A stretch of 64,000 nt of DNA from Planctomycetota bacterium. Lineage in GTDB: Bacteria > Planctomycetota > PUPC01 > JACPCR01. A program made the translations under genes and the position numbers. This document shows, one piece after another, positions 34,687-50,700 of the stretch (position 1 is its first letter; each line of letters begins with the position of its first letter). The notes under the pieces were generated by a model, which had not been told where the DNA came from, did no database searches, and was given only the letters and a program-made list of their open reading frames with translations. Location of the stretch: NCBI GenBank assembly GCA_027625095.1, contig JAQBXN010000033.1, positions 2,193-66,192 on the forward strand, read 5' to 3'.

Positions 34687-35733
34687 ATGAAATCAATAGT
34701 TGCGATTTTTCTTCTTCTAACTTCAACGTCTTACTGCGAGGACAAACGTCTCGGCCCGCCAGCCGAACCATTGAAAGGAAGGTACTGGGATCAGGCTTTC
34801 CTGCCGACGGCAGCGTATGGCTCCTACAACTCGTTCATCAAAAGACCGGACGGAAAGTTGGAACTGTGGAACAACACCATCGGCGACGGACCGGAAGACG
34901 GCCTTGCCCGTTTCATTGGAACGAGCCCGACCGAGTGGGGTGCTCCCGAGATTGTTGTGCCTCATAACATCATCAACGATGTCTTCGACAAAGATGGCAA
35001 ACCGTCCGTCATACGGCGATACACCAGGCCATCGGTTCTGTATCACGAGAAGGATGGATACTTTCTCGTCCCTCACGTCTCTGATGGATATCCGCCGCGG
35101 CAGGGAAGTGTCTATCCGGCTTTGATTGCATCGAAGACGGGAAACCCCGGTTCATGGGTGTACCACGGCAAACTACGCGGTGAGATTGAAGAGTTCTGGC
35201 CTGGCAAGAATTCTCGCTGGGCTGATGGACGTGGCCTTTTCTACCAGCCCGACTTCACTGAGCTGAATACAAAAGAACCCACGAAGAATCGCTTTCTGTT
35301 CTTCTCAAATCAATATCCAGGCCAGGGGTGTCTGGCCCTTCTTTATTCTGCGGACGGCAAGGAATGGCACTTTTATCGCTCCGAGGGAAATATCGTAAAT
35401 CTCTTACCCGAGCCGTTGCGAACCAGGAGTATGATCTTTCCGCACGTGATGCGCGCGGGAAAACATGGCTGGTATGCGTGGATTTCTGAGAAATGGCCAC
35501 CAGAAGCTATCTGGCGGATTCATTCGATGGACGGCATGACCTGGAAGCTCTTCGGCGAGCAACCGGAGGTGGTAAGACCCAAGGATGTAACCATCAAGAC
35601 TCTGTGCGCGTGGTATGACGAGACCGCGGACCTCCTGCATGGCTATGTTTCCGTCTGGGAGAAGGTCGGGGACGATATCAACTACCGGCTTTATCACTCC
35701 AGCAGCCGGCAGTTCTCGATTGGTTCTGATTGA
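34687..35733 (+). CDS. Secreted hypothetical protein, probable beta-propeller glycoside hydrolase-like fold
   Basis: Signal peptide MKSIVAIFLLLTSTSYC; repeated SADGKEW/SMDGMTW/SKTGNPGSW blade motifs. Confidence 0.6.
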   Translation: MKSIVAIFLLLTSTSYCEDKRLGPPAEPLKGRYWDQAFLPTAAYGSYNSFIKRPDGKLELWNNTIGDGPEDGLARFIGTSPTEWGAPEIVVPHNIINDVFDKDGKPSVIRRYTRPSVLYHEKDGYFLVPHVSDGYPPRQGSVYPALIASKTGNPGSWVYHGKLRGEIEEFWPGKNSRWADGRGLFYQPDFTELNTKEPTKNRFLFFSNQYPGQGCLALLYSADGKEWHFYRSEGNIVNLLPEPLRTRSMIFPHVMRAGKHGWYAWISEKWPPEAIWRIHSMDGMTWKLFGEQPEVVRPKDVTIKTLCAWYDETADLLHGYVSVWEKVGDDINYRLYHSSSRQFSIGSD

Positions 35734-35811
35734 AATCCGCAGGAAAGCCGCCTCTCAGTGTGGGGCCCTTCCTCCCGTGTCAGGACCTCCCCAGCGGACC
35801 GCGGCCGCGCC

Positions 35812-35936
35812 TTAGAGTCTTTGGCTGTGACTCCTCCGCGAGGTGCGGAGAACATTGTAGCACGGACTGCCTAGTCCCTGACCCGGCGGACTAGGCAGTC
35901 CGGCCTACGATTGGTTGCGGCCAAGGGCCGCATTAG
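35812..35936. repeat. TTAG-delimited palindromic cassette, copy 2 (GTAG...CTAC REP-type core)
   Basis: TTAG at 35812 and 35933; hairpin CTCCGCGAGGTGCGGAG; core GTAGCACGGACTGCCTAGTCC...GGACTAGGCAGTCCGGCCTAC (35857-35908); right hairpin GCGGCCAAGGGCCGC. Confidence 0.75.
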
Positions 35937-36315
35937 AGCCCAGGCCAAAATGATATTGCCATTGTTTACAGTCCCAAGGGGCCGCTGGCGAGTAACCCCT
36001 GGTTTTGACCCTTGTCATTACCCAAACTTTTCTGCCCCGAAGGGGCTCAGGCAAGTAGCCGGTGGTTTTTAACCACCGGAAACCTGCACAAATTCGTCTT
36101 CAAGCCCCGGAGGGGCTTCAATGGTCTATCTCCACACAATCCGGTGGTTAAAACCACCGGCTACTTGCCTTTACGCCTCCGGCGTAACTGATATGAAGTT
36201 TGGGTAATGACAAGGGTCAAAACCATGGGCTACTCGCCTGTCGCCCTCCTGGACTTCGGATCGCATGTCTGCGTAGGCCGGAAGTTGGCAACATGATTTC
36301 GATCAGTGTCCTTAG
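35933..36315. mobile_element. Nested inverted-repeat (MITE-in-MITE) non-autonomous element
   Basis: 43-bp IR 35987-36029/36196-36238 (2 mismatches); inner 31-32-bp IR 36049-36080/36140-36170; GCCCCGAAGGGGC and GCCCCGGAGGGGC hairpins; weaker outer IR AAAATGATATTGCCA/TGGCAACATGATTTC. Confidence 0.7.
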
Positions 36316-36700
36316 AGATCCTTCTCTGAGTCTTACAGGCGGGACGCCCGGCAGACAGATTTGGTCTTGGGCCCCGCTTTCACTAGCCGTCTGCAACTGC
36401 TCAAAACTTAACAGAAGTGTCAAGTTTTCAGAGCGGCGGACAATCGTAGCTCTGGCTTCCAGGCCGGAGTTCTTGCGAACTGAGATTATGGCAGGTTAAA
36501 AACCTGCCCCACATTTTCGCCGCCCTGAAGGGCAGCGCTACAAGGGACCGCTCGACGGTTTGAGGCGAAGCGCTACTAGTCCAAGACGGATGAGTTTTGA
36601 CGGATTTCTGACGGGTCGGCCCGTTTTCGGAGGATGGCCGTCCTCGGCCGTCTCTTGCCCGACAACTCAAGACTGGCGGGGACTCCCATCCTACATTGCC
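36312..36700. repeat. Cluster of assorted REP-like palindromes
   Basis: ACAGGCGGGACGCCCG; GTAGCTCTGGCTTCCAGGCCGGAG; GGCAGGTTAAAAACCTGCC; CGCCGCCCTGAAGGGCAGCGCTAC; GGATGGCCGTCCTCGGCCGTC...GACTGGCGGGGACTCCCATCCTAC. Confidence 0.55.
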
Positions 36701-36735
36701 AATGCAGAAATCCGTAATAACACCTCCGTCCTGGC

Positions 36736-39700
36736 CTACCTGTTCCTTGGATATTCCACTTTTGTGCCCTGTCTCTCTAATCGTTTCAAGAATTCCACAG
36801 AGCTCTCGGTGAGGTTCTTCAAATCCGGGACGACTAATTTCTTCAGGCTGTCGGTGCCAATCAGCGGTGTCAGGTCAGCCACTTCTGTGTTCTCGAGAGA
36901 AATTGTTTCGAGAGGCATTCCCCGTAATGGGGCAAGGCTGGTCACTGGACATAAATTCAGGATGAGAGATCGAAGAGGCATTCCCTCCAGGGGTGTCAGA
37001 TCGGCGATTTTCGAATTACTGATATCGAGGTCGGTCAATTCCATTCCCTGGAGGTGTTTAAGATCATTGATTCCTGTGAACGCGAGGCTCAGAGCCCTGA
37101 GTGGGATGTCACGGAGCGGTGAAAGGTCTTTGACAAGGATCGCGGCGTTCAGATTGAGCGAATCGAGTTTCAGATCGCTCAAGACCTCAAGCTTTGCAAT
37201 GGTCGAGCCACTCAGGTTGAGGTTTGTAAGTTCGAGGGAAGCAAGGTCGCCGAAATGTTGAATATCCAAGGCTGAGAGATTCAAGGATGCGATATGAATC
37301 CCTTCAAGGGGACGTAGATCTGTCACTTCCGTTTCTGCAATATTGAGGTGAATGAGAGGCATCCCCTTCAGTGGCTCTAATCGTTGAATCGGTGTCTGCT
37401 GCGCTTCGAGATAACTCAGTGGTGCGCCTTTCAATGGCGAGAGGTCTTTCACTTTAGTCCCGCTCATCTTTAAGGATTGGAGCGGCATTCCGTTCAGCGG
37501 AGTCAGGTCGCTGATATCCAGACCGGAGATATCCAAATCCTGAATTGGATAGCCCTGCAAGCCGTCGAGACTGGTAACAGAGGTCTTCTTCAAATTCAGA
37601 CGGATCAGCGGCAGTCGGATTTTCTTTAGCGGCGTGAGATCAGAGACGGAGCTTTCCTCGAGATCGAGAGTTTCGAAATTCAGGTCGTGCAGCAAAGCGA
37701 GGTTGTTTAATTTCGTCCCCTTGAGGTCAGAAATGTTGAAGTCATCTTTGACATTGCTGGACTTGAGTTCGCAGCCTTGTCGATAAAGATCGAACAGCAC
37801 CTTGAACGACTCGGAGTTCAGTTTGTCTAGTGGCGGTGGGACCAGTTTCTGGATTTTTTTGCCTTCCAGCCATGTCAGGTCGTCTATCCCGGTTTTCATG
37901 AGGTCCAGTTCGACGAACGGCATGTGTTTGAGCTTCTGCCAATCCCAGAGGCGTTCCTGATTATCCAGAAACAGGTGTTTCAATTTCATGTCAGTGATTG
38001 GCAGCAAGTCAAAGACTTTGGTCTGTCCGACGTTGAGACTTTCCAGGGGCAGACTTGCTATAGGTTTAAGATCTTCAACTTTCTTTGAGCCCCAGAGACT
38101 GAGCTTTTTGAGGGGCATGCCTTTCAATGGTTTCAAATCCCATATAGAAGTGTTCTCCACGTGCAGGGCTCTGAGCGGCATGCCGGACAATGGCCCCAGG
38201 TCTGTCAGATTGGAAGCGTTACGAATGACAAGCTCACGCAGTGGGATACCGCGCAAGGGGCTCAGATCTTCGAGGAGATCCGATTGATTGAGTTCAAGGA
38301 GATCCAGGCGAACATTCAGGAGCGGCTGCAGGTACCCGACACCAGACAGTCTCAGAGAAGTGAGGACGCCCCGTTTGATTTCATACTGCACCCTCACCTG
38401 GCTCACGTTGGTATGAATCTCGATGAGCTTGCCTGAAATGGCCTCGATCTGCTCCCTGGCTTCCAGATCTTTGATGGACTCATAAAATCCTTCACAATGA
38501 ATCCAGGCGTTAGCGCGGCGCATCTTCCCTTTAACATAATCAATGCGGCTTATCCGAACCTGCTTTACCCCTTCCATGAGCGCAACTGACCGCTGCCAGG
38601 CAGTGAGCGCCTCCTGATACTTCTTTCGTTCGTAAAGGTGGTCACCAAGCTTTTCCATGCTCTCCCAGTCGCGTTCAGTATCTTTGGACTGATTGAGCCT
38701 CTGGATATTCCGCTGGATGTCCTGCTGTTTCTCATCCACTTCCAGCAGTGCCTTGAATGCCATCTTCATCCCCTTGCCAACACTGTTGGCCTTGTGAAAC
38801 CACCCTCGCGCGACATCAAACTGGCCCCGCTCGAACGCGATCATTCCGAGCGCGTAAGGGGCCCAGGGGCCATCGGGCGAGAGTTTCTGCACTGCTTCGG
38901 TGCGAATAAGAGCCTCCTGAAGAAAACCGTCGCGGGCGGCCTGTACTGCCTGAATTGCCAGTTCGCGAGCCGTGGCCCTTTCTGTGATGCCACGGCTCGC
39001 ATCGGCACTTTTTGCGGCGCCGAGCGCAGACCGCGCTACTATGGCGTTCTGTTCTGATATTCGGCGTTGGCGGCTGAGACGGAGGGTGAACAGACCGGTC
39101 AGCATTAACAGCGTCAGTATTGACGCACCGATGGTCAGACTGACCTTGAGATTGCGTTGGATGAGCTTGAGGATGCTGCGTCCGAATGAATCCGTACGAG
39201 CTGTCACGCCCCGCCCTGCAAGAAAAAGTCGAATGTCGCCGGCGAGCGCTTTTGCTGACGGATACCGGCGCCATCGATTCTTTTCGAGGCACTTCATCGC
39301 TATGGCGGACAGCTCCGGGGGGACGCGTAATTCAGGAGCACGCTTTTCCGGAGGAACAATGTCTCCCTCGGTGACATTGAGCAGAATTTCATGAACGGTC
39401 TTTCCTTCTACTGCCCGCCTAAGACTCAGAATCTCGTAAAGAATGGCTCCGAGCGAATAGATATCCGAACGATGACTGAGATTCTGGATCTCCCCCTCAG
39501 CCTGTTCCGGTGACATGTAGGCCGGCGTTCCAGTCACGGCGCCCACTCGGGTCTGTGAAACCTTCGAGTCCGCACGAATGGAGCCCACAGTTTCACTCTT
39601 CGCTTTATTCTTTTTGGCCTTCAACTTCTTGCCTTTCGATTCATCTTCGCCAACGACCTTGCCAAGCCCCCAGTCCATCACCAGCACTTCTCCAAAATCA

Positions 39701-40383
39701 CCGATCATGATGTTGTCCGGCTTCAGGTCGCGATGGATCACTCCCCTTGAGTGGGCGAATGAAACCCCGTCGCAGATTTTCAGAAAAACGCCAAGGAGAA
39801 CCTGGAGATCCGCTGCATCTGGTTTGCCGGATTTAACGTCATCTATCAGCTCCGCCAGCGATTTACCTTTCACAAGCTTCATGGAGAAATAGAGCCGTCC
39901 TTCAGCGTCCTTGCCCAGCTCATGAACAGGAACAATGTTCGGATGTTCGAGCTGTCCGGTTACCTGTGCCTCTTCCAGAAAACGCAGCCGGTGCGGTCGT
40001 GAGTCTGCGATCTCCGGCAGCATCAGCTTTACGGCCATGGGACGGCGCAGCGCCAGATGTGTGGTGATCAGGACTGTGCCCATGCCCCCGTGTGCGATTT
40101 CGCCCTGTCGAACGAATGCTTCACGCCTGCCTCGTTTTCGATCCAGAAATGCATTGAGGCTGTGCAGTTTCTCATCGCCATCCGGCGTGGTTTCTTCGGC
40201 CCAGGCCACGGTCACCACGGTTTCCACATTCGATACTACCTCATAGACGCTCTCCACTTCTGATGTGCTGGGTACATAAGATTCTCCTCCGCACTCAGGG
40301 CACAGAATGGCCGAGCCGGATTGGCTTTCATCAGCATTCAAAGGGTTTCGGCAATCAGACTGTGTGCAGAGGAATTCGATCAT
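36736..40383 (-). CDS. Receptor-like Ser/Thr kinase: Zn-ribbon - kinase - TM - TPR - internalin-type LRRs
   Basis: CTQSDC...CPEC; IAHGGMG, MAVK, HRDLKPDN, MDWGLG, GTPAYMSPE; TM SLTIGASILTLLMLTGLF; TPR-like YALGMIAFERGQFDVA; more than 20 LRRs (DLxPLxGMPLxxLxL). Confidence 0.92.
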   Translation of the reverse strand: MIEFLCTQSDCRNPLNADESQSGSAILCPECGGESYVPSTSEVESVYEVVSNVETVVTVAWAEETTPDGDEKLHSLNAFLDRKRGRREAFVRQGEIAHGGMGTVLITTHLALRRPMAVKLMLPEIADSRPHRLRFLEEAQVTGQLEHPNIVPVHELGKDAEGRLYFSMKLVKGKSLAELIDDVKSGKPDAADLQVLLGVFLKICDGVSFAHSRGVIHRDLKPDNIMIGDFGEVLVMDWGLGKVVGEDESKGKKLKAKKNKAKSETVGSIRADSKVSQTRVGAVTGTPAYMSPEQAEGEIQNLSHRSDIYSLGAILYEILSLRRAVEGKTVHEILLNVTEGDIVPPEKRAPELRVPPELSAIAMKCLEKNRWRRYPSAKALAGDIRLFLAGRGVTARTDSFGRSILKLIQRNLKVSLTIGASILTLLMLTGLFTLRLSRQRRISEQNAIVARSALGAAKSADASRGITERATARELAIQAVQAARDGFLQEALIRTEAVQKLSPDGPWAPYALGMIAFERGQFDVARGWFHKANSVGKGMKMAFKALLEVDEKQQDIQRNIQRLNQSKDTERDWESMEKLGDHLYERKKYQEALTAWQRSVALMEGVKQVRISRIDYVKGKMRRANAWIHCEGFYESIKDLEAREQIEAISGKLIEIHTNVSQVRVQYEIKRGVLTSLRLSGVGYLQPLLNVRLDLLELNQSDLLEDLSPLRGIPLRELVIRNASNLTDLGPLSGMPLRALHVENTSIWDLKPLKGMPLKKLSLWGSKKVEDLKPIASLPLESLNVGQTKVFDLLPITDMKLKHLFLDNQERLWDWQKLKHMPFVELDLMKTGIDDLTWLEGKKIQKLVPPPLDKLNSESFKVLFDLYRQGCELKSSNVKDDFNISDLKGTKLNNLALLHDLNFETLDLEESSVSDLTPLKKIRLPLIRLNLKKTSVTSLDGLQGYPIQDLDISGLDISDLTPLNGMPLQSLKMSGTKVKDLSPLKGAPLSYLEAQQTPIQRLEPLKGMPLIHLNIAETEVTDLRPLEGIHIASLNLSALDIQHFGDLASLELTNLNLSGSTIAKLEVLSDLKLDSLNLNAAILVKDLSPLRDIPLRALSLAFTGINDLKHLQGMELTDLDISNSKIADLTPLEGMPLRSLILNLCPVTSLAPLRGMPLETISLENTEVADLTPLIGTDSLKKLVVPDLKNLTESSVEFLKRLERQGTKVEYPRNR

Positions 40384-40984
40384 TCTGGTGGTTGCTCCTC
40401 CTTCCTATACTTCTCTTTATCCGTTTCCGCTTCCACCGCTTTCTTCAGCCCTTCATCAACGTTCTTGGAGGCAGTGTGAACTACCTTTATCGCCTCGTTT
40501 CTGAGTCGAAGAGCGATGACCGCCGACTCCCGATTCATCGACCCCAGTGCAGGCAGAGCCACATACTTCAGGGGCAGATGTTCGATGGGAGAGATGTCTT
40601 TAACTTGTGTGTCGCTGAGAGCCAGGAATGCCAGTCCCTTCATACCGGAAAGGGGTGAGAGGTCAGAGACACTGGTTGCAGAGATATTCAGCAATCGCAG
40701 CCTGGTCATCCCGCGCAGCGCTTCGATGCTGTCGATATCGGTCTTGACCGCATTCAGGTAATTGAATGGCATGCCCTTCAGGGGATCGAGGCTTTTGACC
40801 GGTGAGTAAGAACAGTCCAGGCTCTTGAGCATCATGCCTTTGAGGGGGGCAAGGTCTCGGACCGCGGTTCGGCTGATGTTCAGGTCGATCAACGCCATGT
40901 TTTCAAGAGGGGTGAGGTCTTTGACCGGCGTGTTTCGCAGAACCAGAGATTGAATCTTCAGACCCCTGATGAGGGAGAGGTCTT
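40380..40984 (-). pseudogene. C-terminal LRR portion of the upstream pseudokinase, separated by a frameshift (ORF 40380..40898)
   Basis: Reading upstream of ATG 40898 in the same frame gives IEDLSLIRGLKIQSLVLRNTPVKDLTPLEN, which continues the LRR register from the upstream ORF's last residues (SLVLSDT). Confidence 0.75.
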
Positions 40985-43900
40985 CTATGTATCGCTCAGA
41001 ACGAGGCTTCGCAGTGGCAATCGAGCGAATACTCGCATGTCAGCCACATTGGCTTTGGCCAGGCTCAGGGATCTGATTGGAGATTCTTCGAGGGGAGTCA
41101 GATCTTTGAAGCGAGTCTGATTGAGAATGAGGACTTCGACAGGTTGACCACGCAAGGCAGAGAGGTCCGTTGCCGGTACAGACGAGAGGTTCAGATGCTC
41201 AAGTTTCATTCCACGCAGGGGAGAGAGGTCCTGGACTTTTGTGTCAGCCAGACTCAGAAACTCAATGTCTTTCCCAGCCAGTGGGCTGATATCGGTGACG
41301 GGAGTTTTGTCCAGGTGCAGTTCTTTTAATTGTGCGGTCTTCAGTGGGCTGAGATCTCTTATCTTTGTGTTGCTGAGCATAAGCTTCCTGATTTTCAGTC
41401 CCGCAAGGGGACCAAGATCCTTGATTCGGGTATCCGAGAGATCGAGTTCCTCAATGGGCGCGTCCCACTCCCTGAGAGGGCTCAAGTCCGTCACCCTCGT
41501 GGATCGGAGATGCAGTTCACTCTGTTTCAGACCTTTGAGGAGCTTGAGATCACTGAACTGGGTTCGTTCCAATTCAGGCGTCGTATTCAAGGCGCGGCCA
41601 TCACGATACATGGCTACAAAAAAATTCATGGAGGCATTGTTTAGCTGGTTAAGACTGGGTGGTCTTAGTAGAAGACCGGGCATTTCCATCAGAGGAGAAA
41701 GCTCTTCTACATGCGTCGAATCCAGGTCAAGGGATTCAAGTTTCATTCCGTTGAGTGGGCTGATGTCTTTGACCTGAGAATTGGAAATCACAAATTTTTT
41801 CAGGGAAAGCCCTTTGAGCGGCAGGATGTTTCTGAGGTTCATCGAATTCGAGAGAATCAGAGTCTCAAGGGGCATTCCCGAAAGAGGGGCGAGGACTCGC
41901 AGGTCATCATTGGATGAAGCGTCAAGCTCGAGAAGGGGCATACCTTCCAATGGCGAAAGGTCTACGATCCCGCACCCTGAAATTCTGAGAATTTCGATTG
42001 GCAAGCCTGCCAGGGATGACAGGTTGTTAGCCCTCGTTCTCGATAAATGAAGCTCTTTGAGCGGCATTCCCTGAAGGGGCCCCAAGTCTCCAATGCCAGT
42101 CAGCCCCAGGTTGAGGTAAGTGAGTGGCATTCCTTTCAGCGGGCTCAGATCGCGAACCTCCGGATTGCTCGTCAGGGAGAGGTGCTCAAGCGGCATACCC
42201 TTGAGTGGGGTAAGGTCGGAAAGGAATCGCGCTGCACTGATCTCCAACTTTTCCAACGGTAGGCCAATCAACGGCTGTAGAAATCGCAGGGGACTGTGGG
42301 CACTGAAAATAATGCCGATCAGTTTGTCGTTCTCGATCACTGGATTTGCTGAAACGTGTTTGCCTTCAGTTCCGTTCAGCTCATTCAGCTTTTCGATCAC
42401 CTTGTTGAATTGCTCTTTGGCGGACAATTCACGAATCGATTCGTAGAACCCTTTCGTGCTAACCCAGGCCCGCGCCATCAGGATTTGTTCTTCCAGCGCT
42501 TCGATCTGCTGAACCTGAACGTGCCTGGACTGAGCCGCGAATTTCTTTGATCGCTGCCATGCCTCAAGAGCACGGGTATACTCGCCGATGGCATAAAATG
42601 CCTCGCCCGCAGCCTGCAGGCTGTCCGGATCATTTTCCGACGACAGTCCAGTGAGCAAAGCCCGGACCTTCTCATTCTCTCCTTTCTTTGCATACACGCG
42701 AGCAAGATAGGTACGAGAAAGCCCATGCTCAGGATCCAGTTCACAGGCTGTTTTGAGATACTCGAACGCCTCTTGTTCATTGCCCTGCTCACTGGCGTTG
42801 ATCGCCGCAGCAAAGATGCCCCATGCGGTGTCGGAAATCCTCCGTGACATCTCGATACGCATCGCTGCCTCCTGAAATAATCCACTGCGCGACGATCGGA
42901 TGGCTTCCTTCGCCAACTCACGAGCCGCCTCGTGCTCGACAGTTCGCCGGCCGGACTGGGCTCGCTTTGCCTTTATCAGGCCGAGCTCTGCATCCTGCTC
43001 CCGACGGACGGATCGGTCGGTCTCTTTCTTCAAGTCCCATAGGAAAGAGATCGTCAAACCGAAAAGAACCAGAAAACTGGCAACACTGGCAATGCTCACC
43101 GCCCTGTTGCGGCGGACAAGTTTTGCAACACTCTCCCCAAGTGTGTCGTGCTTCGCTGAAACTTCGCGGCCTTCGAGAAAGAGCCGAACGTCCCCGGCCA
43201 GTTCCGGCACACTTGAATAGCGCTCGTCCCGATTTATCGCCATGGCCTTCATGACAATGGCGTTGAGTTCCTGTGGGATGCGTAAGGAGGGCTTGCGTTG
43301 TTCAGGTGGGACAAAATCCGCATCAATTACTTTCAACAGTATTTCGTTCGTCGACTTTCCGGTGAATGCGGGGACACCAGTGAGCATTTCGTAAAGCACA
43401 GCGCCCAGCGAATACACATCCGTCCGAGGATCCAGTGGGAGCCCCTCCGCCTGTTCCGGCGACATGTAGGCTGGTGTACCGAGGACGGTGCCGTCAAAAG
43501 TTTCGGAATGGATGGAGGTCAGGGTTTGCTCGTCCGGTATTTCATTTTCATCGGTCATGACCTTGAGCGCGCCCCAGTTCATGACCACTACTTCACCGTA
43601 ATCGCCCACCATGATACTTGCCGGCTTCAAGTCCCGATGGAGCACCGATTTGGAATGAGCGAAAGAAATACCGTCACAGACCTTCAGAAAAACGTCCAGG
43701 AGATGGTCGATGTTTAATGGCTGATGTTTGATGACTCGCCGCCGCCGGACCCCGTCAACCTTTCCCCCTGAACCTTCGATTATTTCCCGAAGAATCAGTG
43801 CGAGAGAACGCCCCTTGATCAGGGTCATTGAATAATAGAGATTTCCGACCGCGTCTTTTGCCACATCGTGGATTGGAACGATATTCGGATGCTCGAGATG

Positions 43901-44149
43901 GCCAAGTACCTGGGCCTCTTGAAAAAAACGATTTCTCTTGAAATCTTTTTCTGCATCATCGGCACTCAGCACTTTGACAGCGATTGTGCGACGAATCGCG
44001 GCATCTCGGGCCGCAAAGATACTTCGCTCTTCATTTATGCTTGCCCCGCGTTCAATCGACTCGATCTCGCCGCGCTGCTCAACCAGCAGTTCAGTCAGAG
44101 CTGCAGCGTCCTGAGCGTCATCAACCAACTTTGATTTAAACTTCGCCAT
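40985..44149 (-). CDS. Receptor-like pseudokinase: degenerate kinase - TM - TPR - LRRs (frameshifted near 3' end)
   Basis: No Gly-rich loop (ERGASINEERSIF); AVK kept; HRDLKPAS (N->S); NWG for DFG/DWG; GTPAYMSPE; TM AVSIASVASFLVLFGLTISFLW; TPRs; LRRs. Confidence 0.88.
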   Translation of the reverse strand: MAKFKSKLVDDAQDAAALTELLVEQRGEIESIERGASINEERSIFAARDAAIRRTIAVKVLSADDAEKDFKRNRFFQEAQVLGHLEHPNIVPIHDVAKDAVGNLYYSMTLIKGRSLALILREIIEGSGGKVDGVRRRRVIKHQPLNIDHLLDVFLKVCDGISFAHSKSVLHRDLKPASIMVGDYGEVVVMNWGALKVMTDENEIPDEQTLTSIHSETFDGTVLGTPAYMSPEQAEGLPLDPRTDVYSLGAVLYEMLTGVPAFTGKSTNEILLKVIDADFVPPEQRKPSLRIPQELNAIVMKAMAINRDERYSSVPELAGDVRLFLEGREVSAKHDTLGESVAKLVRRNRAVSIASVASFLVLFGLTISFLWDLKKETDRSVRREQDAELGLIKAKRAQSGRRTVEHEAARELAKEAIRSSRSGLFQEAAMRIEMSRRISDTAWGIFAAAINASEQGNEQEAFEYLKTACELDPEHGLSRTYLARVYAKKGENEKVRALLTGLSSENDPDSLQAAGEAFYAIGEYTRALEAWQRSKKFAAQSRHVQVQQIEALEEQILMARAWVSTKGFYESIRELSAKEQFNKVIEKLNELNGTEGKHVSANPVIENDKLIGIIFSAHSPLRFLQPLIGLPLEKLEISAARFLSDLTPLKGMPLEHLSLTSNPEVRDLSPLKGMPLTYLNLGLTGIGDLGPLQGMPLKELHLSRTRANNLSSLAGLPIEILRISGCGIVDLSPLEGMPLLELDASSNDDLRVLAPLSGMPLETLILSNSMNLRNILPLKGLSLKKFVISNSQVKDISPLNGMKLESLDLDSTHVEELSPLMEMPGLLLRPPSLNQLNNASMNFFVAMYRDGRALNTTPELERTQFSDLKLLKGLKQSELHLRSTRVTDLSPLREWDAPIEELDLSDTRIKDLGPLAGLKIRKLMLSNTKIRDLSPLKTAQLKELHLDKTPVTDISPLAGKDIEFLSLADTKVQDLSPLRGMKLEHLNLSSVPATDLSALRGQPVEVLILNQTRFKDLTPLEESPIRSLSLAKANVADMRVFARLPLRSLVLSDT

Positions 44150-44343
44150 TTGTCTCGGCTCTACAGGAACACAGGTCTCCCAACTGCTGAAGGCAGGCCG
44201 ACCGTCAGACCGGAGGAAAATTCATGATTGCTGCTCCGGCTCAATAGCTGTTCCAGGAAACGCATCTGAAACAGACGTTCTCGCTACTTGTCTCGATCTT
44301 TAAAAGAAACTCTTGAATTTGTAATCGGCAGGGCTGGTTCCAA

Positions 44344-45600
44344 CTACTCCAAAGCAGCCTGATTCAGCTTGTGCTTTATCTTTTCAAATATCTCCGGCCG
44401 AGTTCTTCTGATGCCGGGCAGGCTCTGCCATTCTATCGCCTTGGGCATGCGGGGCACATAGTCGTCCCAGGAAGCTATATCGATGAGTTCGCCAGCCCTG
44501 ACAACTCCTGCGCAGGCGAGTCTCTTCTCACACTTTACCGTTTCTCCCTTTGTATCCATCAATTCAAAATTGCCTTCCTGTTCATCAAGAATCGTGATGT
44601 CTGCTTCGCTGCCGATGGCCAGGGAGCCGAGCGATTCTTCACGGCGAATGGCTCTTGCAGGGCTGATGGTTGTTTTCTCGATGATCGTCTCGATGGGCAT
44701 GCCCAGTGCCAGGAACTTGGACATGGTGGTCAGAAGATCGAAGACCGGCCCGCCATGATTGAGCGTGTGAAGATCGCTGCTGATGATATCCGGCAGGAAG
44801 TGCTGTTCGAAGGCCGCACGCGCCGTCTCAAACCCGAAGCTCCCGCCGCCGTGTCCCACGTCGAACAGGATCCCCCTGTCGCGGGCCTGGTGAACAACCT
44901 CCAGAACCTTCCCATCTCCGCCAAGAATCGTGTCGCTGCGGCAGTGATAGCAGTGAGTGGCAATATCCCCGGCCCGCATGAGACTCAGAACATCTCCAAT
45001 CGGGACTCCGCCGCCCAGGTGCGTCATCACGTGAGTGTTAGAAAGTTCAGCGGCCTTGATGGCGTATTTCAACGGCTCGACGCCATTCTTTTCCACCTGC
45101 GCTCCGCCTTGTCTCACTTTGATACCAATCGCTACATCCAAATTCTCGAGCACGCATTCGGCAGTCTCTTCCGGGCAGGCGTATCGGATGTCAGCCATCT
45201 CGCCGATTGGGCCATAGACCAGACCAAGACCGGAGATGTGGATATAGCAGAGCACGCGGCCTTGTGACTTGTTGATGCTCAATTCTCGAAATCCGGGAAA
45301 CGTCACCCAACTCGCACTCCCTGCATCCACTGCTGTAGTAACTCCCTTGGCCAGGCAGGTGGGGTCCGCATCGATCCCCCAGGTGGTGACCTTGGAATAA
45401 AGGTGGGTATGGATATCGATCAGGCCGGGACAGACTATCTTGCCTGAGGCGTCCAGCGACTGAGTTGCTTCGCCCTCGAGGTCTGCCTGAATGCCGGCAA
45501 CCTTCCCGTCCTGAATGCCGATGTCTGCTTTTTGATCCAGGTTATGGGCAGGATCGATAACTCTTCCGTTGCGTATGATGAGATCGTATTTTTCGGACAT
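44344..45600 (-). CDS. Amidohydrolase/deacetylase-family metallohydrolase (dihydroorotase-like)
   Basis: IRNGRVIDP, PGLIDIHTH, GVTTAVDAGS, GIKVR, THCYH, FDVGHGGGSF, ISSDLH, ADITIL. Confidence 0.88.
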   Translation of the reverse strand: MSEKYDLIIRNGRVIDPAHNLDQKADIGIQDGKVAGIQADLEGEATQSLDASGKIVCPGLIDIHTHLYSKVTTWGIDADPTCLAKGVTTAVDAGSASWVTFPGFRELSINKSQGRVLCYIHISGLGLVYGPIGEMADIRYACPEETAECVLENLDVAIGIKVRQGGAQVEKNGVEPLKYAIKAAELSNTHVMTHLGGGVPIGDVLSLMRAGDIATHCYHCRSDTILGGDGKVLEVVHQARDRGILFDVGHGGGSFGFETARAAFEQHFLPDIISSDLHTLNHGGPVFDLLTTMSKFLALGMPIETIIEKTTISPARAIRREESLGSLAIGSEADITILDEQEGNFELMDTKGETVKCEKRLACAGVVRAGELIDIASWDDYVPRMPKAIEWQSLPGIRRTRPEIFEKIKHKLNQAALE

Positions 45601-45733
45601 GAAATCTGGTCTTCCAATTGAGAAGTAATCAGGACCGCCGGGACGAATATTTGAGGCTCAGAGTTTAGTGAGTTGTGGTACCTCCAGAAAACCGTTACGT
45701 CAATAAACCTACGGAAACACTCAAGAGAGCACC

Positions 45734-46681
45734 ATGAAAAAAATAATTGTTACAGAAGACATCGCGGGAGAACGCCTCGACAGGCTCAAGACTGAGTTCG
45801 ACGTGCTTCATGATTTCGATATAGGGCGAGACCGGCCCCGTTTGCTTGCGACTGTTCCTGAATTCGAGGGAATGATCGTTCGCAATCACACTCAGGTGAA
45901 TGAGGAACTGCTCGTAGCCGCGACCAATCTCAAGGTGGTCGGACGACACGGCATCGGCCTCGATAATGTAGATGTTGCTGCTGCAAGTCGGGCGGGGGTC
46001 ATCGTTACCTACGCTCCGGATCAGAACACCGTATCTGTCGCCGAACTGACTATGTGCCTGCTCATTGCTCTGGCCCGTGACCTGGTGAATATGGATATCA
46101 GCACAAAAGCCGGTGGGTGGGAGCGCAATCGTTTTTGCAATATGGAGATTTACCAGAAGACCCTTGGCATTATCGGGCTTGGCAAGATCGGTTTTCGGGT
46201 TGCTATGCGTGCAAGAGCGTTTGGGCTGCGAATTCTGGCGTACGACAAATATCTCAGTACCGACAGCTTCAACTACACCGAATCCGGCGCCCTCGCGTGC
46301 ACGCTCGATGAAGTGTTGGAGCAATCCGACTTTGTGACAATTCATACGCCCCTGAACGATGAGACTCGTAACTTCTGTGATGAAGGGTTCTTCGCTCGAA
46401 TGAAACCGTCGGCTTATTTTCTGAATCAGGCTCGAGGCGGACTTGTCGTTGAGGATGCGATTGTGAAAGCACTTAAGGGGCGCCGCATCGCGGGTGCCGC
46501 GCTGGACGTTCGGCAAAATGAACCGCCTGGGGTGGACGAACTGGCAGGTATGGAAAACGTTATCCTTACCCCGCACATGGCCGGACTTACGAATGAGTGC
46601 CGGGAAAGGGTCTGCGGTGTAGTATGTGAAGATGTGGCCCGGGTGCTGAGCGGACTGGACCCGATCTATCCTGCGGATTAA
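45734..46681 (+). CDS. D-isomer-specific 2-hydroxyacid dehydrogenase (SerA-like catalytic core)
   Basis: GRHGIGLDNVD, SVAEL, LGIIGLGKIG, HTPL, NQARGGLV, AALDV, EP, LTPHMAG. Confidence 0.9.
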   Translation: MKKIIVTEDIAGERLDRLKTEFDVLHDFDIGRDRPRLLATVPEFEGMIVRNHTQVNEELLVAATNLKVVGRHGIGLDNVDVAAASRAGVIVTYAPDQNTVSVAELTMCLLIALARDLVNMDISTKAGGWERNRFCNMEIYQKTLGIIGLGKIGFRVAMRARAFGLRILAYDKYLSTDSFNYTESGALACTLDEVLEQSDFVTIHTPLNDETRNFCDEGFFARMKPSAYFLNQARGGLVVEDAIVKALKGRRIAGAALDVRQNEPPGVDELAGMENVILTPHMAGLTNECRERVCGVVCEDVARVLSGLDPIYPAD

Positions 46682-47782: not shown

Positions 47783-50700
47783 TCAATTCCTCTTGAAAAT
47801 AGTGTCCGTCGGATTGCCACCAGACTGAATGAAGGCAACGAGATCAAGGATCTCTTCCTTCGTAAGAGTGACGAGCAGGCCAGTCGGCATCTGTGAAACA
47901 TCCAACGGCTTCCTGGCCCGTATCGATTCCTTCTTCAGTTTCACCACTTGTTTTGTGTCCAGAAGGCTCGCTACGAGATGCAGGAAATTGCCGTCATCTT
48001 TGAGGATCGTGCCAACGAAGGTTTCGTCGTCTTCTGTGAGGAATGTAAATGCCTTGAAGTCCTCGTTGATTTCGGCGGAAGGCTCAAGAATTTGCTGGAG
48101 CAGTTTTTGGCCCTGGTATTTCCTGCTGACCTCTGTCAGGTCTGGGCCGAGTTGAGTACCACTGCCGGCAATTCGGTGGCACTTGTTGCATCCAACGGCG
48201 CCAAACATCCGTTGGCCGGCCGAGAAATCTCTGCCGGTCAGTGGGATTTCGATTTCCGGTGAGAAGTCAGGAAGGTTCCACATCTTTACGAATTGGCGTG
48301 ATTGTCCTTGCGGCTCTTCGTTCGAAGCGATCATCTCCTGTACCGGGGTGGTCGATTCCACCCTTTTGACCACTCGGAGGATTCCGTTCATGAGGCGGTA
48401 ATGTCCCGGGAAGGTGCAAACGAAGATGTATTCGCCCGGTTCATTCGGGGCGATGAATTGCAGTTCTTCGTCTGAGCCGGGAAGCAGCAGGGAGGTTGCA
48501 TGCAAGATACTTGGGCTATTGGGCAAATAGCCTTTCTTTTCTGCTTCAGGGCCCTGCATCTGATCGGCGGCTTCCCCGACTTCCTGGAGCGAGCCGGGTT
48601 TGATGATTACCAGGTTGTGGGGCATGGCATCAATGTTGTCGAATCTTATGACAACTGGTTGTCCCACCGCCACGGTCAGGCGTTTCGTGTCATAAATCAT
48701 CTGATGGGGAACGGGGCGAACGACGAACTTACTCACGGCCTGGTTCAACAGTTTTGTCGTGTATTCAGTGCCGCCTGGTATGGCTTTGGCCAGCTCATAA
48801 CCGAGCACCACTGTGGCGTTGATGGCCGGCGCGTTCCGATCCAGGCCCTTCTTCGACATGAGAAGTTTCAGGATGCCATCGAGAGTCGGTTTAATGGCAT
48901 CCTCTGGCCACGTCTCCTTCGGCAATCTGGCAATGGCAGCGGAAGCCGCGGCGACCTGATTGCCCGCCTGAATCAAATTGGAGAACTCTCTGAATTTCTC
49001 GGCCTCCTGACCCGGAAGTTCTGCGACGGCAATCAGGAGCTCTCCCCTTAGACTCATGCCGCCTTCGGTTCGCAGATCTTTTTTCTCAATGACTGTCTTC
49101 TTCATCTTTGGGCCTTCCCAGAAAGCTTGCAGATGGTCCCCGCCGCCGGAATCAAACATAGTTACAAGCAGCTTGTGCGGCCCGGCGGTAAGTTGAATGT
49201 TGCCGCTCTTTTCAACAGGGCCATGGTTGCCGTCATTGCTTACGACCAGCTTGTCGTCGATGTAAAGCATCGAGCCGTCATCGGAGTTTGTGTAGAAGGT
49301 GTATCTACCTGATTCCGGCACCAGGATGGCGCCGGTAAAGCGAAGGCCAAACGATCCTTTGTCCTTCAACACCTCGGTGTTGAGATCGATAGCGTCCGCG
49401 ATACCGCTGGCAGTGGGCTTCATCTTTTCAACCACTTCTCTGCTTGCAGACCGCGGAAACCGGGCGTAGTAATCGACGTTTATTCCGGATTTGCCTGAGA
49501 TTCCCTCGCCCTCTCCCTCCGCGCTGGAAAGTAATGGCGGCAATTTGGCCATGAGCGGTTTGAGAAGTGCATATGCAGCGCTCTTCAGTGTATTGTCTAC
49601 CTGCGGTAGTGCGGCGAGAAATTCGCGAACGCGGTCGGGGTCAGTGGAGGCCTCAGACCACGCTGCGTCCGGCGAGCCATCGGCCTTCATCCAGGATGCG
49701 TAACCGAGGGTCCGCATGCCTGACGTTTTAGATTGAGTGGCCATCTTCTTGATGAGCAGGAGCTGTTTTTTCAGCGCACCGGCTTCCTGTCCGCTGAAGA
49801 GCCTGCCGAGGGATTCCAGAGCCTCGGATGCATCCGGGATATTGCCGGAGTCGAGGGCATCAAGCGTCTCGATAAGCAGGGCAGTGGAGTCTTTGTTTTC
49901 GATCATGGCCAATGCGGAAAGGGCTTCCTGCCGAACTTCTGCCGGCACGCCGCTTCGAGTAAGCAGGGCGTTGTAGACGCCACGGTTACGGGGCATCTGA
50001 AGCAGTTGAGCAGTCGAGACATTTTTCAGGATGAATTGCGCCGCAGCCGGGCTTGTTGCGGTGAGCTTGCCTTCCGCGGCCGCAGGCTTCCACCATTGCT
50101 CCAGCTGCGACATAGTCTGCTTGAAGGTGAAATCAATGTAGTCATCGGAGGGTTTGTTCAGGGCGGCGATTGCTATTTCAGCGGCCTGGTAATGACGAAA
50201 GAAACTGGCTGCGCGCACGGCTTCAATGCGTACCCTCGGGTGGTCGTCGGCAACCTGAATCTTCAAAAGCTCGATGGGTTGATTCACACGGTCGCGCCAG
50301 TGGCACAACACGCGGGTAGCGGCAGCACGGGCATGGAAGTCCGGAGAACGGAGCATTCGTTTGAGAAGATATTCGTTAACGACATTAAAACTCTGGTGCA
50401 GCCAGAGAGCTTCCATCATGTGGTGTTCGAAGGCAGGATCATTTTTGTCGAGGCCGGCGATCCATTTCTCTGCGGCTGGGATCACATCGCTTTCATTGCG
50501 TCCGCTTAATTCGCTACGTGTGCGCTGCAGGACGCGTAGTTCGCGTTCCTTGAGCAAGTCGAGCAGGGCGGCGATTGGGGCTCCGGCAATTTTCTTCAGC
50601 GCGACCAGCGGACGGCCCTCACAGGTCACGCGATAGATTCGACCGTGAGCATGGTCGCGGTTGGGGTCACGCAGATTGTGTTGCATGTGGCCGATGAGCG

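What the first reader, a model, noticed from the sequence alone, without database searches (positions are those of the whole stretch)
36736..44149. Coupled LRR receptor pseudokinase + LRR receptor kinase pair (bacterial analogue of receptor/co-receptor signalling)
Seen: two tandem paralogues with the same layout (cytoplasmic kinase fold, one TM, TPR-like helices, long internalin-type LRR ectodomain), joined by an ATGA stop/start overlap at 40380-40383. The upstream copy has lost three catalytic elements at once: no GxGxxG loop, HRDLKPxN->HRDLKPAS (~43615-43640) and DWG->NWG (~43571). It keeps VAIK-Lys, the GTPAYMSPE activation segment and the C-lobe. The downstream copy has every motif intact plus an N-terminal Zn ribbon. 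Known: plants use LRR receptor kinases with LRR pseudokinase regulators (e.g. BIR2 with BAK1), and animals use kinase/pseudokinase heterodimers (HER2/HER3). Inference: losses focused on ATP/Mg-binding residues with the fold preserved suggest a selected pseudokinase. The pair may be a heterodimeric surface-sensing or innate-immunity-like receptor system, which I do not recall being described in bacteria.
Basis: partly seen in the sequence, partly recalled or inferred. Interest (0 to 1): 0.82.

Follow-up and report, generated by a model that had tools for sequence, protein, structure and literature searches.

The report
Receptor kinase beside its degenerate, frameshifted paralogue
Two neighbouring genes for membrane sensor kinases are real, and the first has lost catalytic residues, but it has no counterpart in other genomes and is broken by frameshifts in every near-identical assembly examined, so it looks like a one-off copy on its way out.

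Summary
The tandem pair is real. Two minus-strand paralogues (36% identity, E=0) share one layout: Hanks-type kinase, one TM helix, TPR, LRR. They belong to a family that is widespread in Planctomycetota, Verrucomicrobiota and Lentisphaerota.

The upstream copy lacks the Gly-rich loop, the HRDxxxxN Asn and the DFG Asp. It keeps the beta3 Lys, the alphaC Glu and the HRD Asp, so it is a pseudokinase by sequence.

The LRRs continue in another frame, and only that tail reaches the ATGA overlap. Public contigs show this is a 4-nt deletion allele. An in-frame allele coexists in two runs. An estuary strain carries a further 1-nt deletion, matching a 728-aa database form.

No orthologue was found (best 39-48% identity). 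Only four other proteins among about 277 kinase-bearing relatives lack a catalytic residue, none in the same way. None of 10 credible tandem kinase pairs elsewhere includes a pseudokinase. Recent substitutions look unconstrained upstream (10 N : 4-5 S) and constrained downstream (11 N : 16 S).

A dimer model passed (0.84 vs 0.00) with an N-lobe interface that may echo PknB.

Verdict: a lineage-specific pseudokinase, long maintained and now decaying. It is not a conserved receptor/co-receptor system.

The parts
36736..40383 (-). Downstream gene (P0002, 1215 aa). Layout: CxxxxC...CPxC N-terminus, Hanks-type kinase with all catalytic motifs, one TM helix, TPR, two LRR blocks.
   Evidence: Between strains it shows 11 nonsynonymous and 16 synonymous differences, pN/pS 0.22.
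40985..44149 (-). Upstream ORF (P0001, 1054 aa). Layout: degenerate kinase domain, one TM helix, TPR, LRR. It ends at TAG 40985-40987.
40380..40988 (-). Out-of-frame continuation of the upstream gene: further LRRs and a C-terminal tail. It contains the 172-aa ORF P0003, and its TGA overlaps the downstream ATG.
   Evidence: (LRR_4, E 4.7e-10).
40985..40990 (-). Frameshift site. The window allele lacks 4 nt that other contigs carry (reported as 'AGCA put in behind 40988' on the + strand). With those 4 nt the LRR tail is back in frame.
   Evidence: depth with the insertion is X1 9.8 of 23.7, X2 4.61 of 9.01, X3 0 of 10.1, X5 0 of 12.1. Frames.
42022..42022 (-). Site of a second, 1-nt deletion allele in the estuary strain. 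It would truncate the protein after residue 709.
   Evidence: X5 12.1 of 12.1; X3 contigs stop at 42022 and restart at 42041. P0166 (728 aa, 4 Logan contigs) is in frame to residue 709 and then has 19 out-of-frame residues.
40380..40383 (-). ATGA stop/start overlap between the tail frame of the upstream gene and the downstream gene.
40395..40405 (-). Purine-rich GGAAGGAGGAG stretch, Shine-Dalgarno-like, 12-22 nt before the downstream ATG.
   Evidence: Read from the sequence. Not tested.
44018..44056 (-). Remnant of the Gly-rich loop of P0001 (residues 32-44). Only one Gly is left, and there is an insertion relative to the family.
   Evidence: positions 37-42 deviate from the conserved columns.
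43616..43639 (-). Catalytic loop HRDLKPAS of P0001. The HRD Asp and the Lys are kept. Asp-Asn of the family is replaced by Ala-Ser.
43571..43579 (-). NWG in place of the family's DWG (the DFG-equivalent metal-binding Asp is lost).
43043..43099 (-). Single predicted TM helix of P0001 (residues about 351-369).
   Evidence: Kyte-Doolittle, 19-residue window, maximum 2.14.
39088..39144 (-). Single predicted TM helix of P0002 (residues about 414-432).
   Evidence: maximum 2.0.

Best explanation
The locus holds two co-oriented paralogues of a receptor-type Hanks Ser/Thr kinase family common in PVC bacteria. The layout is an N-terminal cytoplasmic kinase, one TM helix, then an extracytoplasmic (presumably periplasmic) TPR region and two LRR blocks.

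The downstream gene is a canonical kinase under purifying selection. The upstream gene is a lineage-restricted copy. It lost its Gly-rich loop, both metal-binding residues and the N-terminal Cys-rich segment, but kept the kinase fold, the TM helix and the sensor domain.

SHOWN
- The motif losses.
- The frameshift, and the coexistence of frameshifted and in-frame alleles.
- A second frameshift in another strain.
- The absence of orthologues and of conserved kinase/pseudokinase pairing.

INFERRED
- The frame stayed open over a long, fast-evolving branch, and the ectodomain is as conserved as its partner's. So the protein was kept for a long time as a non-catalytic pseudokinase.
- Its most likely role was as a modulatory dimer partner of active paralogues, through the N-lobe interface that Hanks receptor kinases use for allosteric activation. 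The obvious candidate partner is the translationally coupled neighbour.
- That role is now dispensable, and the gene is being lost by truncation.

It is not a conserved bacterial receptor/co-receptor system.
For: PARALOGY AND LAYOUT.

MOTIF STATES. P0001 is the only one of the 7 own-genome subfamily members with losses. It is the only one of 163 kinase-bearing proteins from two searches that lacks the Asn and the DFG Asp.

FRAMESHIFT. It is seen. The window allele is present in contigs of 4 of 4 runs from 2 studies. The allele with 4 extra nt is present in X1 (9.8 of 23.7) and X2 (4.61 of 9.01) only. A 1-nt deletion at 42022 is seen in X5. Database forms are 1054 aa (P0165, from another assembly) and 728 aa (P0166, 4 contigs).

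NO ORTHOLOGUE. The best non-self identity is 39% over the full length, up to 51% for the kinase region, and at most 48% among 1.84 billion representatives.

PAIRING. None of 10 credible adjacent pairs with complete kinase domains has a deficient member. This includes 3 LRR-kinase/LRR-kinase pairs (L031, L087 twice).

LONG BRANCH: 1.15 against a median of 0.28.

KINASE-SPECIFIC EXCESS DIVERGENCE: 34/143 vs 12/135 conserved columns in the kinase domain, with equal ectodomain divergence of 10/52 vs 10/51.

RECENT SUBSTITUTIONS. Upstream has 10 N: 4-5 S (pN/pS 0.64-0.80; p vs neutral 0.38-0.76). Downstream has 11 N: 16 S (0.22; p about 1e-4).

DIMER MODEL. ipSAE is 0.84 in three runs and the best of 3 controls is 0.00. 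That mark was reached by 58 of 80 solved complexes and 2 of 110 mismatched pairs. Runs agree in at least 75% of contacts, and the partner's pLDDT is at least 77. The interface is symmetric and N-lobe centred.
Against: - The difference in N:S between the two genes is not significant (Fisher p 0.10-0.20). It rests on 14-15 and 27 differences against one other strain. One synonymous count is uncertain because one search did not list all differences.
- All run data are Logan contigs, not raw reads. The in-frame allele is carried on short pieces (138 and 475 nt), so its linkage to this organism rests on flanking identity alone. X1 may be the source sample.
- The truncated 1054-aa protein still has the kinase domain, TM helix, TPR and most LRRs, so it could be functional.
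- The predicted interface is no better conserved in P0001 than the rest of the domain (7/27 vs 25/114 conserved columns deviate).
- The dimer pass may come from likeness to solved PknB dimers, and no homodimer or non-neighbour paralogue was run as a specificity control.
- Only one genome of the same family (G001) was available, so a genus-level orthologue could exist unsampled.
Confidence: 0.55

Rival explanations
1. Working receptor/co-receptor pair. The upstream pseudokinase, full-length or truncated, is still expressed and heterodimerises with the co-transcribed downstream kinase, activating or restraining it allosterically. Its divergent LRR ectodomain adds a second ligand specificity.
For: - The in-frame allele would end in an ATGA overlap with the downstream start.
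- Fold and ectodomain are retained.
- The kinase/pseudokinase dimer model passed (0.84, best control 0.00; 58 of 80 solved and 2 of 110 mismatched pairs reach the mark).
- An in-frame allele persists at roughly 40-50% of depth in two runs.
- A second adjacent intact/deficient kinase pair exists in the same genome on C38.
Against: - No conserved pairing was found (0 of 10 credible pairs) and no orthologue.
- There are two independent truncating alleles, one removing nearly all LRRs.
- pN/pS is 0.64-0.80.
- The predicted interface is not preferentially conserved.
- P0001 and P0002 are not sister sequences, so they are not a co-evolving recent duplicate pair.
- The model pass may reflect the solved PknB dimer and had no paralogue control.
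Confidence: 0.2
2. Plain decaying duplicate. The motif losses, the loss of the N-terminal Cys-rich segment and the frameshifts are all part of one relaxation of constraint. The copy never had a selected non-catalytic role.
For: Frameshift alleles. pN/pS near neutral. A singleton without orthologues. A long branch.
Against: - Neutral drift long enough to give a 1.15 substitutions/site branch, a rebuilt Gly-loop region with an in-frame insertion and 34 deviations at conserved kinase columns should also have produced many stops and indels. Apart from the polymorphic frameshifts, the 1054-codon frame is open. This is an inference, not a simulation.
- Many deviations are conservative (L>F, F>Y, I>V, E>D).
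- The ectodomain deviates no more than the active partner's.
Confidence: 0.15
3. Atypical but active kinase. The upstream domain still transfers phosphate without the usual metal ligands, as the eukaryotic kinase CASK is reported to do (recalled, not read here). It keeps the beta3 Lys, the alphaC Glu, the HRD Asp and the catalytic-loop Lys.
For: Lys, Glu and HRD Asp are retained. The review PMC12599244 (sections read) notes that some pseudokinases keep nucleotide binding or have acquired other activities.
Against: The Gly-rich loop is destroyed and carries an insertion, and both metal-binding residues are lost together. Nothing here tests activity.
Confidence: 0.06
4. The frameshift is an assembly or sequencing artefact, and the upstream gene is really intact in this organism.
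For: Another paralogue in this MAG (C144) is also split between two frames, so assembly errors or collapsed strain variation are conceivable. An in-frame allele exists in X1 and X2.
Against: The same frameshifted sequence stands in contigs of all 4 runs laid, from 2 studies six years apart. It is the only form seen in X3 and X5. The 1054-aa product is also on record from another assembly (P0165). The site is not a homopolymer.
Confidence: 0.03

Closest known systems
PknB-type receptor Hanks kinases (M. tuberculosis PknB, S. pneumoniae StkP)
   Same: The closest solved structures by sequence are PknB kinase domains (1mru and others, E about 3e-40). The topology is the same: N-terminal cytoplasmic kinase, one TM helix, extracytoplasmic repeat sensor. 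The predicted dimer uses a symmetric N-lobe/alphaC surface, as described for the PknB back-to-back dimer (passages of PMC13434768).
   Different: The sensor is TPR plus LRR, not PASTA. The family has an N-terminal Cys-rich (zinc-ribbon-like) segment and DWG instead of DFG. I did not superpose the model on PknB, so the likeness of the interfaces is judged by position only.
Conserved bacterial Ser/Thr pseudokinase families (ActPs1-3, GLW, CP1, DYD, DLHK; review PMC12599244)
   Same: A Hanks-type fold with degraded ATP- and metal-binding motifs. Many of these families are membrane-associated (sections read).
   Different: Those are conserved families. P0001 is a single degenerate member inside an otherwise active family and keeps the beta3 Lys and the HRD Asp. 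The review's text holds none of the words LRR, leucine-rich, TPR or Planctomyc. The underlying atlas of about 300,000 bacterial kinases (its reference 72) is not in the library, so I could not check whether it covers this PVC family.
Plant LRR receptor kinase / LRR pseudokinase pairs (BAK1-BIR2) and HER2/HER3 (recalled, not read here)
   Same: The concept is the same: an active receptor kinase beside a catalytically impaired paralogue with the same domain types.
   Different: The polarity is opposite (kinase N-terminal and LRR C-terminal here). There is no evidence of common descent of the arrangement, no conserved pairing, and no binding evidence beyond a model. The ectodomain would lie in the periplasm of a diderm cell, not on the cell surface (inference).
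Other LRR-bearing kinase-deficient proteins in the same superfamily (P0279, P0248)
   Same: They are large proteins that match P0001's LRR region and whose kinase domains lack several catalytic residues.
   Different: They are not orthologues. They are 1613 and 1682 aa, match through the LRR part, and have different motif losses. Their genomic context was not examined.

Membership tests
Hanks-type (eukaryote-like) Ser/Thr protein kinase, Pfam PF00069 | Significant match to the protein kinase domain profile | tested here: met
   P0001 scores 110.6 bits and P0002 scores 115 bits, against a cut-off of 31.7. The nearest solved structure is PknB.
Hanks-type (eukaryote-like) Ser/Thr protein kinase, Pfam PF00069 | Complete catalytic set: Gly-rich loop, beta3 Lys, alphaC Glu, HRD Asp, catalytic-loop Asn, DFG Asp | tested here: not met
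   P0002 has all of them. P0001 lacks the Gly-rich loop, the Asn (Ser instead) and the DFG Asp (Asn instead). So P0001 has the fold but is not a canonical active kinase.
Pseudokinase (sequence definition) | Lacks at least one of beta3 Lys, HRD Asp and DFG Asp (definition as in PMC12599244, Introduction) | tested here: met
   The DFG-equivalent Asp is Asn in P0001. It is one of 11 such domains among 81 complete kinase domains in the genome.
Pseudokinase (functional definition) | No phosphotransfer and/or no nucleotide binding | not testable with these tools
   Needs thermal-shift and kinase assays.
Receptor/co-receptor kinase-pseudokinase system | Pairing of an active and an inactive paralogue conserved across genomes | tested here: not met
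   None of 10 credible adjacent pairs with complete domains in 179 loci has a deficient member. P0001 has no orthologue. Flanking synteny is absent in the one same-family genome.
Receptor/co-receptor kinase-pseudokinase system | Physical heterodimer of the two proteins | tested here: inconclusive
   The model scores 0.84 against a best control of 0.00. The interface may echo the solved PknB dimer. No paralogue or homodimer control was run. The predicted interface is not preferentially conserved.
Receptor/co-receptor kinase-pseudokinase system | Purifying selection on the pseudokinase | tested here: inconclusive
   Long term: the open frame and conserved ectodomain argue for selection (inference). 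Recent: pN/pS is 0.64-0.80 from 14-15 differences, not distinguishable from neutral.
Pseudogene in the making | Frame-disrupting mutations in natural populations | tested here: met
   A 4-nt deletion allele is present in 4 of 4 runs, with the in-frame allele also present in 2 of them. A 1-nt deletion at 42022 is present in X5, and a 728-aa product is found on 4 contigs.

The most novel reading that the evidence does not exclude
The upstream gene is a working LRR-receptor pseudokinase that tunes its translationally coupled, active LRR-receptor kinase through N-lobe heterodimerisation. That would be a bacterial counterpart of receptor/co-receptor signalling. The coexisting full-length, LRR-shortened and nearly LRR-less alleles would then be standing variation that changes what, or whether, the pair senses in different strains of one population.
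Probability: 0.15. Interest if true: 0.65.

Novelty: new member of a known kind. Interest (0 to 1): 0.3.

Why it matters
The kinase-TM-TPR-LRR family is large and widespread in PVC bacteria, and none of my literature searches found a study of it. Its ligands and substrates are unknown.

A natural case with an active and a degenerate copy side by side, and in-frame and truncated alleles in one population, would be a convenient entry point. It could be used to ask whether bacterial receptor kinases use non-catalytic partners.

As it stands, the evidence points to a lineage-specific pseudokinase that is being lost, which is an ordinary fate for a paralogue. The finding does not establish a new signalling principle.

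Tried and rejected
- Promoter/terminator scan of 35700-45800: 5 promoter-like and 11 terminator-like sites, no more than in shuffles (means 4.6 and 10.6). It says nothing about operon structure.
- A remnant of the Cys-rich N-terminus upstream of the P0001 start: none in any of three frames of 44100-44420.
- Synteny with the only same-family genome (G001): the flanking amidohydrolase and the 363-aa ORF have orthologues (59% and 65% identity) on two different contigs, with no family member beside them. Uninformative.
It gave no orthologue, only more loci for the pair count.
- Earlier findings of this scan: nothing to show for this place.
- Programmed frameshifting: considered and rejected, because an in-frame allele differing by 4 nt exists and the site is not a slippery or homopolymer sequence.
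- Literature searches for a bacterial LRR kinase/pseudokinase pair found none. This covers only the held open-access library.
- I ran no structure prediction of the single domains or of the ectodomains. The LRR/LRR complex would exceed the size limit of the complex tool.
Full report
WHAT IS THERE

On the minus strand lie two long ORFs: 40985..44149 (1054 aa, P0001) and 36736..40383 (1215 aa, P0002). They align end to end at 36% identity, E=0. Both match Pfam Pkinase, TPR families and LRR_4. Each has one strongly hydrophobic 19-residue segment just after the kinase domain.

The window is part of an 8.95-Mb, 262-contig MAG (G000). P0001 gave 105 matches in it, and 91 ORFs there match a kinase-domain profile I built from the first hits. 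The nearest named relatives are annotated as Planctomycetota or Phycisphaerae MAG proteins. The same architecture turns up in Verrucomicrobiota (Chthoniobacterales, Limisphaerales) and Lentisphaerota/Victivallales genomes.

THE MOTIF CLAIM HOLDS

P0002 reads AHGGMGTV, MAVKLM, FLEEAQV, HRDLKPDN, MDWG and GTPAYMSPE. P0001 has only a remnant of the Gly-rich loop, with an insertion. It reads HRDLKPAS and NWG, and keeps the beta3 Lys, the alphaC Glu, the HRD Asp and the activation-segment motif. By the definition in PMC12599244 (Introduction read), loss of the DFG Asp makes it a pseudokinase by sequence.

It is not unusual for this genome in that respect. 11 of 81 complete kinase domains lack the Lys, the HRD Asp or the DFG Asp.

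The upstream ORF stops at TAG 40985-40987. The LRR repeats continue without interruption in another frame, from 40988 down to the TGA at 40382-40380. It is this tail frame (holding the 172-aa ORF P0003, LRR_4 E 4.7e-10) that overlaps the downstream ATG in ATGA.

I laid Logan contigs of four public runs on 36600-44300.
- The window's frameshifted form stands in all four runs: X1 and X2 from a 2016 aquatic study, X1 possibly the source; X3 and X5 from a 2022 estuary study.
- One contig each in X1 (depth 9.8 of 23.7) and X2 (4.61 of 9.01) carries 4 extra bases at 40988. These put the tail back in frame.
- X3 (0 of 10.1) and X5 (0 of 12.1) show only the deleted form.
- X5 also lacks one base at 42022 (12.1 of 12.1). 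X3's contigs break there.

The protein database agrees. The 90% cluster of P0001 holds a second 1054-aa form from another assembly (P0165, 2 differences). It also holds a 728-aa form on 4 Logan contigs (P0166) that follows P0001 to residue 709 and then runs out of frame.

So the frameshift is real and polymorphic, and a second truncating allele exists. These are contigs, not reads, and the in-frame allele sits on short pieces (138 and 475 nt).

IS THE PSEUDOKINASE CONSERVED, AND IS THE PAIRING?

No orthologue was found.
- Full-length word-indexed search: best non-self hit 39% identical.
- Kinase region alone: up to 51% over partial alignments.
- Exhaustive HMMER search of 1.84 billion representatives: nothing above 48%.

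Motif states in relatives:
- Of the 163 kinase-bearing proteins from the first two searches, 156 have the Lys, Glu, HRD Asp, Asn and DFG Asp, 6 are N-terminally incomplete, and only P0001 lacks the Asn and the DFG Asp.
- Of 115 further kinase-bearing representatives, 100 are intact, 11 are incomplete and 4 are deficient. One of the 4 has its Lys moved into the Gly-loop, one may be misaligned, and two are unrelated large LRR proteins with different losses.

In the 179 loci fetched from relatives, species-representative genomes and metagenomes, I found 219 kinase ORFs and 14 adjacent same-strand pairs. Eleven pairs have both domains complete. Ten of those have all three catalytic residues in both members. 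The eleventh (L103) is two reading frames over the same DNA, which I regard as an artefact. Three pairs are LRR-kinase next to LRR-kinase (L031, L087 twice), and all are intact.

In the window's own genome, the seven members of this subfamily include no other tandem pair. The one same-family genome (G001) has neither an orthologue nor conserved flanks.

SELECTION, PAST AND PRESENT

In a quick ML tree of 53 kinase domains, P0001 has an end branch of 1.15 against a median of 0.28. P0002 has 0.58. The two are not sisters: P0002 groups with the paralogue on C54 (SH-aLRT 88), and P0001 is unresolved.

I then looked at columns where at least 90% of 19 relatives agree.
- In the kinase domain, P0001 deviates at 34 of 143 such columns and P0002 at 12 of 135.
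- Beyond the kinase domain, P0001 deviates at 10 of 52 and P0002 at 10 of 51.
- Many of P0001's changes are conservative.

The alignment is weighted towards one clade, so both window proteins look like outliers. I infer that the copy evolved for a long time under selection that spared the fold and the sensor but not catalysis. Neutral drift of that length would have closed a 1054-codon frame many times over.

Recent history looks different. Against the estuary strain:
- The upstream gene shows 10 nonsynonymous and 4-5 synonymous differences (pN/pS 0.64-0.80; p 0.38-0.76 against neutrality).
- The downstream gene shows 11 and 16 (0.22; p about 1e-4).
- The contrast between the genes is not significant (Fisher p 0.10-0.20). 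One synonymous count is uncertain because one search did not list every difference.
- The out-of-frame tail shows 3 changes that would be nonsynonymous and 1 that would be synonymous.

Together with two truncating alleles, this leans towards present-day relaxation.

DOES IT BIND ITS NEIGHBOUR?

One complex job was available. I used it on the kinase domains of P0002 (residues 75-410) and P0001 (residues 20-347), each with my own alignment. The result supports binding at the level of the model only.
- Score: 0.84 in three runs; the best of 3 controls scored 0.00.
- Calibration: the mark was reached by 58 of 80 solved complexes and 2 of 110 mismatched pairs. These counts hold only roughly because my own alignments were used.
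- Consistency: runs agree in at least 75% of contacts, and the partner's pLDDT is at least 77.
- Interface: symmetric, centred on the N-lobe and the alphaC-beta4 region.

The nearest solved structures are PknB kinase domains. Passages of PMC13434768 describe a back-to-back N-lobe dimer of PknB that is proposed to activate the kinase allosterically. The pass may therefore reflect likeness to that complex. It says nothing about specificity for the neighbour, because no homodimer or other paralogue was run. The predicted interface is not better conserved in P0001 than the rest of the domain (7 of 27 vs 25 of 114 conserved columns deviate).

MOST LIKELY MECHANISM

The downstream protein is a canonical receptor kinase. 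An unknown ligand of the TPR-LRR domain would drive dimerisation and activation on the cytoplasmic side. In a diderm PVC cell that domain would face the periplasm rather than the outside (inference).

The upstream protein was, in my reading, a non-catalytic paralogue that could join such dimers and modulate active family members. It now appears dispensable and is being truncated out of existence. I put 0.55 on this. The rivals are:
- a still-working co-receptor pair, 0.20;
- a duplicate that never had a non-catalytic role, 0.15;
- an atypical active kinase, 0.06;
- an assembly artefact, 0.03.

COMPARISON AND NOVELTY

Receptor-type Hanks kinases and bacterial pseudokinases are both known. The review PMC12599244 lists seven pseudokinase families and says that the pseudokinase share of bacterial kinomes ranges from none to 67%. 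Its text does not mention LRR, TPR or Planctomycetes.

Five searches of the held library found no bacterial LRR kinase/pseudokinase pair. The kinase atlas behind the review is not held, and supplements are closed, so the family may be catalogued there.

I file P0001 as a new member of a known kind: a lineage-specific pseudokinase inside an active receptor-kinase family. The analogy with BAK1/BIR2 or HER2/HER3 (recalled) is conceptual only.

Noticed in passing
Loci L047, L050, L054, L071, L073, L079, L082, L084, L090, L108, L110, L115, L137; protein P0215: A clade of kinases, mostly from Lentisphaerota/Victivallales records, has no Lys in the VAIK position (AMA or AKA). Instead it carries a Lys inside the Gly-rich loop (G.GGMK.V) and reads HLD for HRD. 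This is the same displacement of the catalytic Lys as in eukaryotic WNK kinases (recalled). Several of these proteins carry the LRR ectodomain.
   Followed up: no
G000 contig C38:641-2176 and C38:2578-3798 (outside the window): A second adjacent same-strand pair in the same genome. A kinase with all motifs is followed by one lacking the HRD Asp and the DFG Asp.
   Followed up: no
G000 contig C144:73403-76311 (outside the window): Another paralogue of the same subfamily is also split between two reading frames near C144:75103-75136, with kinase-TM-TPR in one frame and LRR in the other.
   Followed up: partly
window 38764-38827: Six synonymous differences from the estuary strain fall within 64 nt of the downstream gene. 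This may be a small recombination tract, and it inflates that gene's synonymous count.
   Followed up: no
window 47783-52675 (-): A 1630-aa ORF combines GDSL lipase, DUF7133, HEAT, PA14, cupredoxin and cytochrome c domains.
   Followed up: no
Proteins P0279 and P0248: Two large proteins (1613 and 1682 aa) match P0001's LRR region, and their kinase domains lack several catalytic residues. So kinase-deficient LRR proteins appear more than once in this superfamily. Their gene neighbourhoods were not examined.
   Followed up: no
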